A stretch of 64,000 bases of DNA from Eledone cirrhosa. Its lineage: Eukaryota. The notes under the pieces were generated by a model. The model searched no databases. It worked only from the letters and a program-made list of their open reading frames with translations, and was not told the origin of the DNA. A program made the position numbers and the translations under genes. Where the stretch lies: contig OZ024743.1 of NCBI GenBank assembly GCA_964016885.1, positions 299,956,001-300,020,000 on the forward strand. Reading direction: 5' to 3'. Below, in pieces: positions 53,421 through 55,092 of the stretch (the first letter of the stretch is position 1; each line of letters starts with the position of its first letter).

Positions 53421-55092
53421 ATATGAAAAAGTTTGTCCTCATCAGTGGCCTTCCAACCGTCGTAGGCATTTCGTCGCATTAAAGGCCATATACCTCAGGT
53501 TGGTGCGAGCAACGGCTAAAAAAAGTCGCTGGGACACGTAAATAAGGGGGACCCTAGGGTAAACAAACAAAATGGTTTAAGCAACAGAAAATGATGAATA
53601 AGAAAGAAACAAGTCCCAGATTTCTATGAATATAAATTCCGTGGAATCGTGAACGAGAGAATAAAGACCATCAGACCTGATTGAAATGTGAGCAAGGAAG
53701 GAATTTCGTACAGGTCTAACGGGAGGAAGAAGGGGTCTGGTCTGCGAATTCGGTAAACATAAGTTCTGTGAAGTCGCAGACGAGAGAGTGAGAAAAGAAA
53801 TTCATACCGGCTTGGTAAAGTGCCCGCGAGAAAAGGATTACGGACAGGTCAAACGGAAAGAAAGGGGAGGAGGAGAGGTAGTGACAGAGAGTGAGTGAGT
53901 GAAAGGTGAGGAAGAGGCTAACAGAGAGAGAGAGAGACTGTTAGAAAGGATAAAGACACAAAGACCGAAACAGACTGGTGGCAGCGGAGGGAAAATATAT
54001 GTGTAAATATGATAATAATGGAGCTGCGGCGCTGCAAATGGGTTATATATGAAAAAGTTTGTCCTAATCAGTGGCCTTCCAACCGTCGTAGGCATTTCGT
54101 CGCATTAAAGGCCATATACCTCAGGTTGGTGCGAGCAACGGCTAAAAAAAGTCGCTGGGACACGTAAATAAGGGGGACGCTAGGGTAAACAAACAAAATG
54201 GTTTAAGCAACAGAAAGTGATGAAGAAGAAAGAAACAAGTCCCAGATTTCTATGAATATAAATTCGGTGGAATCGTGAACGAGAGAATAAAGACCATCAA
54301 ACCTGGTTGAAATGTGAGCAAGGAAGGAATTTCGCACAGGTCTAACGGGAGGAAGAAGGGGTCTGGTCTGCGAATTCGGTAAACATAAGTTCTGTGAAGT
54401 CGCAGACGAGAGAGAGAGAAAGAAAATTCATACCGGCTTGGCCAAGTGCCTGCGAGAAAAGGATTACGGACAGGTCAAACGGGAAGAAAGTGGAGGAGGA
54501 GAGGTAGTGACAGAGAGTGAGTGAGTGAACGGTGAGGAAGAGGCTAACAGAGAGAGAGAGAGAGACTGCTAGAAAGGGTAAAGACACAAAGAACGAAACA
54601 GACTGGTGGCAGCGGAGGAAAAAAATATATGTGTAAATATGATAATAATGGAGCTGCGGCGCTGCAAATGGGTTACATATGAAAAAGTTTGTCCTCATCA
54701 GTGGCCTTCGAGCAACGGCTAAAAAAAGTCGTTGGGACACGTAAATAAGGAGGACGCTAGGGTGAACAAACAAAATGGTTTAAGCAACAGAAAGTGATGG
54801 AGAAAGAAACAAGTCCCAGATTTCACGATTCCACCGAATTTATATTCATAGAAATCTGGGACTTGTTACTTTCTTCTTCATCACTTTCTGTTGCTTAAAC
54901 CATTTTGTTTGTTTACCCTAGCGTTCCCCTTATTTACGTGTCCCAACGACTTTTTTTAGCCGTTGCTCGCACCAACCTGAGGTATATGGCCTTTAATGCG
55001 ACGAAATGCCTACGTCGGTTGAAGGCCACTGATGAGGACAAACTTTTTCTTATGTAACCCATTTGCAGCGCCGCAGCTCCATTATTATCATA
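53421..55092 (-). mobile_element. Tandem array, 626-630 bp unit (about 2.3 copies), plus inverted copy 54823-55092, embedded in (TA)n
   Basis: GAAAAAGTTTGTCCT at 53425, 54051 and 54681. Confidence 0.92.

What the first reader, a model, noticed from the sequence alone, without database searches (positions are those of the whole stretch)
53421..55092. 626-630 bp array with retrozyme architecture but a non-canonical ribozyme-like core
Seen: same tandem plus 5'-inverted layout in (TA)n, but no standard type I HHR. Read at 54939-55040 (plus): TGTCC-[hairpin CAACGAC T7 AGCCGTTG]-CTCGCACCAA-CCT G AGG-TA TA-TGGCCTT-loop-AAGGCCA-CTGATGA-GGACA. The CUGAUGA box is flanked by a 7-bp helix and a potential TGTCC/GGACA stem II, the order of a type II HHR, but GAAA is replaced by an inserted hairpin. 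CCAACC/GGTTGG could also cross-pair as a pseudoknot. Inference: a permuted or variant hammerhead, or a different self-cleaving motif.
Basis: inference. Interest (0 to 1): 0.74.

Follow-up and report, generated by a model that had tools for sequence, protein, structure and literature searches.

The report
Scrambled hammerhead ribozyme in Naiad-type retrozyme
This jumping repeat carries every part of a hammerhead self-cutting RNA strung in a reversed, knotted order so far described only from environmental RNA, and a matching fold can be read at the tail of Naiad retrotransposons that were reported to lack hammerheads, so it is likely their overlooked ribozyme; cutting itself is predicted, not tested.

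Summary
The array is real: two 626-630 bp units, a deleted third unit and an inverted arm in (TA)n. The GAAA box is not missing. The order is cleavage block, GAAA block, CUGAnGA block: the non-circular type-SGC hammerhead of Eckert et al. 2023, which that paper found only in metatranscriptomes. About 14 related families in this 3.0-Gb animal genome keep the fold with compensatory changes (46 copies: 89.7% of cells paired, 16 of 23 pairs change on both sides; nested type II fits 0 of 46). Unlike published SGC motifs, stem II is one G-C pair opening into a four-way junction held by an upstream strand, so the published descriptor finds 1 of 167 cores. The insertions bear Penelope-type marks. By eye, two published Octopus Naiad consensi end in the same fold, and six nematode Naiads end in type-CSG hammerheads. 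Cleavage, circular RNA and the mobilising enzyme are inferred; only decayed Naiads were found in this genome.

The parts
53054..53424 (.). Left (TA)n/(CA)n target tract
53421..54046 (-). Unit 1 (626 nt); its 3' end joins (TA)n at the short end, without the tail
   Evidence: L001
53434..53536 (-). Intact S-G-C hammerhead of unit 1: C block 53445-53439, G10.1 53438, C11.1 53473, G block 53472-53469, predicted cut between 53489 and 53488
   Evidence: by eye; row 1 of alignment A1
54047..54676 (-). Unit 2 (630 nt); core G8 is changed at 54066, predicted inactive
   Evidence: one search shows the other letter at full depth there, so the change is private to this copy
54677..54824 (-). Partial unit 3; a 53-nt deletion at 54709/54710 removes the G and S blocks
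   Evidence: (D11 spacing 577)
54822..55092 (+). Inverted arm, 5'-truncated, ending at the long end
54939..54942 (+). Outer helix IIa, 5' strand (pairs with 55037-55040); spare C at 54943 could pair with G10.1
54944..54965 (+). Hairpin IIb
54967..54971 (+). Helix IIc, 5' strand (pairs with 54997-55001)
54972..54977 (+). Pseudoknot helix, 5' strand (pairs with 55017-55021; this copy lacks one G of the family form)
54980..54991 (+). S block: stem III 3' strand 54980-54985 (U16.1 = 54985), H17 = 54986, predicted cut 54986/54987, stem I 5' strand 54987-54991
55002..55011 (+). G block: C11.1 55002, GAAA box 55003-55006, stem III 5' strand 55006-55011
55024..55036 (+). C block: stem I 3' strand 55024-55028, CUGAnGA box 55029-55035, G10.1 55036
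55054..55092 (+). About 39-nt tail present only at the right end of the insertion
   Evidence: compare the 30-40 bp tail of PLEs in PMC8557442
55090..55390 (.). Right (TA)n target tract

Best explanation
Each intact unit of this non-coding repeat holds a complete hammerhead core in the non-circular order cleavage block, GAAA block, CUGAnGA block (type SGC), predicted to cut its own RNA once per unit, and the repeat is likely a retrozyme copied into (TA)n by a Penelope-like enzyme, probably of the Naiad clade. SHOWN in sequence: the three blocks; stems I and III in exact register; an upstream strand that forms helix IIa with the bases after G10.1, hairpin IIb, helix IIc with the bases before the GAAA box, and a 6-bp pseudoknot next to stem I; fixed 3' ends, ragged or inverted 5' ends and (TA)n targets. 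INFERRED: the upstream strand replaces the loop I-loop II contact and clamps stems I and II. In the 23-nt families a kink-turn-like loop between stem III and the pseudoknot (3-nt bulge, then G-A/A-G; consensus recalled) would bend the pseudoknot back toward stem I. Cutting after H17 in successive units would free 625-630 nt monomers that a host ligase could circularise. A PLE endonuclease would nick (TA)n, prime on one of two AU-rich patches about 67 and 106 nt downstream of the cut, and copy through the cut site on circles or uncut multimers to give tandem units; priming on the second strand would give the inverted arm. Odds: designed-to-cut SGC hammerhead about 0.85; PLE-type mobilisation about 0.9; Naiad as the enzyme about 0.55.
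For: Alignment A1, 46 gap-free copies of 9 families: 89.7% of 1058 cells paired, 16 of 23 pairs with two-sided change, slid controls 28-46%. Own-family pairing beats all but 1 of 362,880 family permutations for four helices together, 2 for stem I, 90 for stem III, 18 for the pseudoknot. U16.1 in 46 of 46, H17 only A or C, N7 takes all four letters. A separate set of 65 shorter-spaced cores: 30 with at least 9 of 11 pairs in register against a mean of 1.7 (max 8) after shuffling. Pattern counts against reversed controls: 62 v 1, 259 v 1, 55 v 0, 288 v 17. Family M has unrelated letters and the same fold. All 8 distinct inverted insertions among the 28 have the tail at one end only, as described for PLEs; Naiads prefer (TA)n and 'lack canonical HHR'. 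The Naiad_Obim and Naiad_Ovul consensi end, by eye, in the same fold with the same 23-nt spacing.
Against: No cleavage or expression data; one search listed no RNA run. The core boxes and the C before GAAA were imposed by my search patterns, so their invariance is not evidence. Stem II between the G and C blocks is a single pair; the published SGC descriptor fits 1 of 167 cores and neither window core. Helix IIa reached 11,219 of 200,000 permutations in a free search, though 26 of 200,000 when anchored. Nested folding does not return the core for most copies (it cannot show pseudoknots). Swapping upstream parts among the 65 related cores still gave 19.5 on average, max 28, against 30. Families are kin, so the permutation counts are not probabilities. 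Naiads found in this genome are decayed (147 matches, most with stops) and no SGC motif was seen at their 3' ends, while family A is young (about 97% alike). Only 5 of 23 selected copies start at the predicted cut.
Confidence: 0.8

Rival explanations
1. The fold is hammerhead-derived but no longer cuts; it is kept as the structure that a PLE reverse transcriptase recognises near the 3' end.
For: Stem II is reduced to one pair; most copies read through the site; only 5 of 23 selected copies start at it; the motif sits just before the priming ends.
Against: U16.1 in 46 of 46 and H17 never G were not fixed in place by the searches; stems I and III stay in catalytic register across about 14 families.
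Confidence: 0.09
2. The blocks work in trans: two tandem units or two RNAs swap strands and form ordinary junctions, so the knot never forms within one unit.
For: Tandem units exist; dimer cleavage is known for PLE hammerheads (cited in PMC10085705 references; title only); the pseudoknot must span stems I and III.
Against: Fixed short spacings (15 nt and 23 nt in 46 of 46 rows), four local covarying outer helices, and published SGC monomers that cut in cis. Naiad consensi carry one copy.
Confidence: 0.06
3. One reading: a type II hammerhead whose GAAA is replaced by a hairpin, or a non-hammerhead ribozyme.
For: The outer helix and the pseudoknot it named are real.
Against: GAAA is present and pairs back in register; its stem III needs a 1-nt loop and is 68% paired; nested type II fits 0 of 46; no Rfam ribozyme hit.
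Confidence: 0.03
4. On the carrier only: the ribozyme came from a Naiad, but young families such as A are now copied by another PLE clade that carries a type I hammerhead.
For: Only decayed Naiads found; younger C-terminal GIY-YIG PLEs lie in several loci; PMC8557442 calls cephalopod Naiads long inactive.
Against: Shared fold and spacing with Octopus Naiad tails; my Naiad searches used one motif and one 118-aa query and could miss a distant intact family.
Confidence: 0.35

Closest known systems
Type-SGC hammerhead ribozymes (HRIMA-1 and SGC variants; Eckert et al. 2023, PMC10085705; seen: introduction, sections 13-17, first part of 18, supplement part 1 and descriptor passages)
   Same: S-G-C block order, full core, 5-bp stem I, 4-7 bp stem III, a helix next to the distal end of stem I, extra-U core variant in some families.
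   Different: Here in genomic DNA of an animal, in mobile repeats; the paper found none in genomes of known organisms. Stem II is one pair opening into a four-way junction; the clamp comes from an upstream strand, not from the 3' side of stem II; 10 nt, not about 3, lie between stem I and C11.1.
Metazoan non-LTR retrozymes (Cervera and de la Pena 2020, PMC7229834, passages; Li et al. 2026, 10.64898/2026.07.22.740005, parts 1-2 of 5 and passages)
   Same: Non-coding tandem units, one ribozyme per unit, dispersed copies, PLE link.
   Different: Those are defined by type I hammerheads and mostly 150-450 nt units; both surveys used type I (or III) descriptors. Here type SGC and 626-630 nt.
Naiad Penelope-like elements (Craig et al. 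2021, PMC8557442; seen: passages, supplement parts 1, 18, 19, 24 and passages)
   Same: (TA)n preference, partial tandems, inverted 5'-truncated arm, 30-40 bp tail at one end; by eye the same ribozyme fold at the tail of two Octopus consensi.
   Different: No ORF here; no sequence-level partner found in this genome. The paper reports no canonical hammerhead, only 'core' and 'half core' marks.

Membership tests
Hammerhead ribozyme | CUGAnGA and GAAA boxes | tested here: met
   55029-55035 and 55003-55006; unit 1 likewise. Unit 2 has G8 changed.
Hammerhead ribozyme | A15.1-U16.1 pair and H17 followed at once by stem I | tested here: met
   46 of 46 U, H17 A or C; stems covary
Hammerhead ribozyme | G10.1-C11.1 pair with C11.1 directly before GAAA | tested here: inconclusive
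   C present in 46 of 46 but imposed by the searches; present unimposed in two Octopus Naiad consensi. An upstream C (54943) could pair instead in families A, B, G.
Hammerhead ribozyme | Site-specific self-cleavage | not testable with these tools
   no RNA run listed
Type-SGC permutation (order of blocks) | S, then G, then C block | tested here: met
   37 of 46 rows with stems I and III of 4 or more contiguous pairs; 30 of 65 further cores
HRIMA-1 / SGC-variant motifs as published | Stem II of 2-6 further pairs between the G and C blocks | tested here: not met
   1 of 167 cores, 0 of 2 window cores (descriptor, N7 left free)
HRIMA-1 / SGC-variant motifs as published | Helix joining the strand before stem I to the strand after stem II | tested here: not met
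   both strands pair with an upstream strand instead
Type II hammerhead (GSC) | Cleavage block between the G and C blocks | tested here: not met
   0 of 46
Non-LTR retrozyme | Non-coding tandem units with one ribozyme each, dispersed | tested here: met
   ORFs short or in (TA)n; no tRNA
Non-LTR retrozyme | Type I hammerhead | tested here: not met
   order is S-G-C
Non-LTR retrozyme | Expressed linear and circular monomers | not testable with these tools
Non-autonomous PLE insertion | Partial tandems, 5' truncation or inversion, tail at one end, microsatellite target | tested here: met
   8 of 8 inverted insertions asymmetric. The query included the tail, so counts of tailed ends are biased.
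Non-autonomous Naiad derivative | 3' end homologous to an autonomous Naiad of the same genome | tested here: inconclusive
   decayed Naiads only, no motif seen in 30 downstream stretches of 1500 nt; fold match to Octopus consensi by eye

The most novel reading that the evidence does not exclude
Naiads, a PLE clade said to lack hammerheads, use non-circularly permuted ones of at least two orders (SGC in Octopus, CSG in nematodes) and have spawned SGC retrozyme families. In the SGC form the core itself is opened: G10.1 pairs with a C from the upstream strand, so the GAAA strand enters from a separate helix and is not continuous with stem II, a hammerhead wiring outside the three-block scheme, folded by a protein-bound kink-turn.
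Probability: 0.35. Interest if true: 0.9.

Novelty: new variant of a known kind. Interest (0 to 1): 0.8.

Why it matters
It would give non-circularly permuted hammerheads a host and a job: published SGC motifs come from RNA of unknown origin, and CSG rested on two sequences. It would explain why Naiads seemed to lack hammerheads and show that type I-only surveys miss whole retrozyme families in animals. It offers natural covarying constructs of about 110 nt for testing how a knotted hammerhead folds with a one-pair stem II.

Tried and rejected
Rfam: nothing at gathering score; weak hits are microRNA or repeat noise. Metagenome scan 0 hits; 5 viral hits lack an S block and look coding. No RNA holder listed, which says nothing about expression. 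DNA contigs laid on the array confirm a high-copy family, but no listed piece spans the array. A PLE ORF next to an SGC core: none contiguous in the 180 loci then held; PLEs in L070 and L117 have their own type I motifs and are separate insertions. Enrichment of 5' ends at the cut site: 5 of 23, not normalised and confounded by TA microhomology. SGC at the tails of decayed Naiads: not seen. HDV-like, twister and pistol threading by eye from recalled consensus: no fit. One search ended in an error before the hairpin IIb shuffle test, so IIb rests on folds by family only. A wider tally of 3' ends, and a test of the base before GAAA without imposing C, were not done and remain open.

Full report
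Observation. The window holds two full units (53421-54046, 54047-54676), a partial third unit and an inverted arm (about 54822-55092) between (TA)n tracts. The ribozyme-like segment reads on the minus strand in the units and on the plus strand in the arm. Rfam has no match.

The core is complete. A15.1 and the next five bases pair with 54985-54980; 54986 is H17; stem I (54987-54991 with 55024-55028) follows with no offset and leads into the CUGAnGA box and G10.1 (by eye). The 5'-3' order is cleavage block, G block, C block. Eckert et al. (PMC10085705, sections 13-16 read) call this type SGC, showed cleavage at 0.007-0.19 per min, and state that none of their motifs but one GCS candidate occurred in genomes of known organisms. 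Unit 1 is intact; unit 2 has G8 changed; unit 3 lacks the G and S blocks; the arm has an intact core and a shortened pseudoknot.

Family and relatives. The host is a 3.0-Gb animal genome; I did not determine the species. A DNA search gave 2190 candidates, 40 scored, top hits 97-98% alike. Pattern searches gave 1759 matches with overlaps against 12, 62 v 1 (21), 259 v 1 (28), 55 v 0 (39), 288 v 17 (43) and 84 v 9 (65); these are exact-match lower bounds. They exposed about 14 families, which I labelled A, A2, B, J, K, F, G, L, C, C2, E, E2, H and M, plus single copies D and I. Full units of A and B are only about 65-68% alike.

Covariation. Of 62 distinct cores with 23 nt between the boxes I aligned 46 and dropped 16 by eye: 12 whose upstream part was truncated, rearranged or unrelated and 4 with indels; this choice may lean toward pairing. 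The alignment is gap-free. For the 23-pair knotted structure, 89.7% of cells pair, 16 pairs change on both sides, 0 of 500 shuffles reach the score, and slid controls give 28-46%. Permuting partners among 9 families: 1 of 362,880 reaches the observed sum for all four helices, 90 for stem III, 2 for stem I, 18 for the pseudoknot, 293 for IIc; the four top-ranked of 2701 column pairs are all predicted pairs. Kinship means these are not probabilities. In 65 other cores (17-22 nt spacing, none dropped) 30 have at least 9 of 11 stem I and III pairs in register, against 1.7 after shuffling and 19.5 after swapping among these related cores. The boxes and the C before GAAA were imposed by the searches; U16.1 (46 of 46) and H17 (never G) were not fixed in place.

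What differs from published SGC. Only G10.1-C11.1 can pair between the G and C blocks. The published descriptor needs 2-6 more pairs and fits 1 of 167 cores, against 51 when that demand is dropped. An upstream strand supplies helix IIa (after G10.1), hairpin IIb, helix IIc (before the GAAA box) and the pseudoknot (before stem I). Across 14 families IIc and the pseudoknot beat permutation (36 and 203 of 200,000); IIa did not in a free search (11,219) but did when anchored on IIb (26, where the anchor failed for one copy and was off for some families). Whether G10.1 takes the C before GAAA or the upstream C is open; I put it near 55:45. In the 23-nt families three of the four bases of a kink-turn-like loop between stem III and the pseudoknot are at least 90% conserved (columns 15, 49, 50) and the outermost stem III pair is weak (24 of 46). 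I took this idea from an earlier AI note; the kink-turn consensus is recalled.

Carrier. Among the 28 distinct insertions, 3' ends fall at two sites about 39 nt apart and 5' ends are ragged; all 8 inverted insertions have the longer end on one arm only; most ends abut (TA)n. Craig et al. (PMC8557442, passages) describe partial tandems, an inverted 5'-truncated copy and a 30-40 bp tail at one end for PLEs, a (TA)n bias for Naiads, and no canonical hammerhead in Naiads. Most copies run through the predicted cut, so the template would be a circle or an uncut multimer (inference).

Naiad link, read by eye from that paper's supplement and not computed. Naiad_Obim and Naiad_Ovul end in an S-G-C hammerhead with 6-bp stem I, 5-bp stem III, hairpin IIb, helix IIc, the pseudoknot and the same 23-nt spacing; the incomplete Naiad_Omin shows none. 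Six of six nematode Naiad ends that I saw (Parc, Nbra 1-3, Hcon, Hpol) read as C-S-G hammerheads with different letters in all three stems and a stem I-II helix. Darwinula 2 and 3 look type II-like and Ppla showed no core. The supplement was cut on storage and I saw only part of the 54 Naiad records. In this genome a short motif found 4 Naiad remnants and a 118-aa query 147 matches, mostly with stops; no SGC motif was seen in the 30 downstream stretches examined. The Naiad label of these remnants rests on motifs compared by eye; Pfam gave no hit.

Novelty. Searches for SGC, CSG or permuted hammerheads with Naiad, Penelope, retrotransposon or octopus returned no paper that reports this, judged from listings and the passages read; the library lacks most subscription papers, and preprint supplements were not seen. 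The retrozyme papers read use type I or III descriptors. Many earlier AI notes of this scan reach the same reading; they are not independent support, and all but the kink-turn was reached here before I saw them.

Verdict. It works like a type-SGC hammerhead and shares its order, but fails two features of the published motifs, so it is a new variant, in an animal retroelement. Cleavage, circles and the enzyme remain untested.

Noticed in passing
PMC8557442 supplement, 3' ends of Naiad_Parc, Naiad-1/2/3_Nbra, Naiad_Hcon, Naiad_Hpol: All six read by eye as type-CSG hammerheads with compensatory changes in stems I-III and a stem I-II helix; the type rested on two sequences in PMC10085705.
   Followed up: partly
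window 57080-58480: Second tandem-plus-inverted element in (TA)n, 523-nt unit, with hammerhead boxes in C-then-G order at about 58351-58357 and 58385-58388 (by eye).
   Followed up: no
window 53473 region; L141, L062: In families A, A2 and B the 3' arm of hairpin IIb can instead pair with the stretch after stem III, which would block the pseudoknot: a possible off-switch.
   Followed up: partly
L234-L271: Decayed Naiad-like remnants with a shared 3' end abutting (TA)n and a 3' UTR over 1 kb.
   Followed up: partly
L070:2449-2490 and L117:4110-4160: C-terminal GIY-YIG PLEs with their own minimal type I hammerheads (by eye).
   Followed up: no
L142:2400-2900: Four head-to-tail 118-nt copies of little more than the family C2 ribozyme.
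   Followed up: no
L078:2400-2600 and L215:1400-1600: Short palindromic elements whose arms carry both hammerhead boxes; may be chance.
   Followed up: no
PMC8557442 supplement, Naiad-2_Dst and Naiad-3_Dst: G and C boxes about 47 nt apart with a possible pseudoknot, type II-like, by eye.
   Followed up: no
L075:400-1293: Uninterrupted 298-aa frame that looks like a cellular gene (FGF1 intracellular binding protein; label recalled), perhaps a retrocopy.
   Followed up: no
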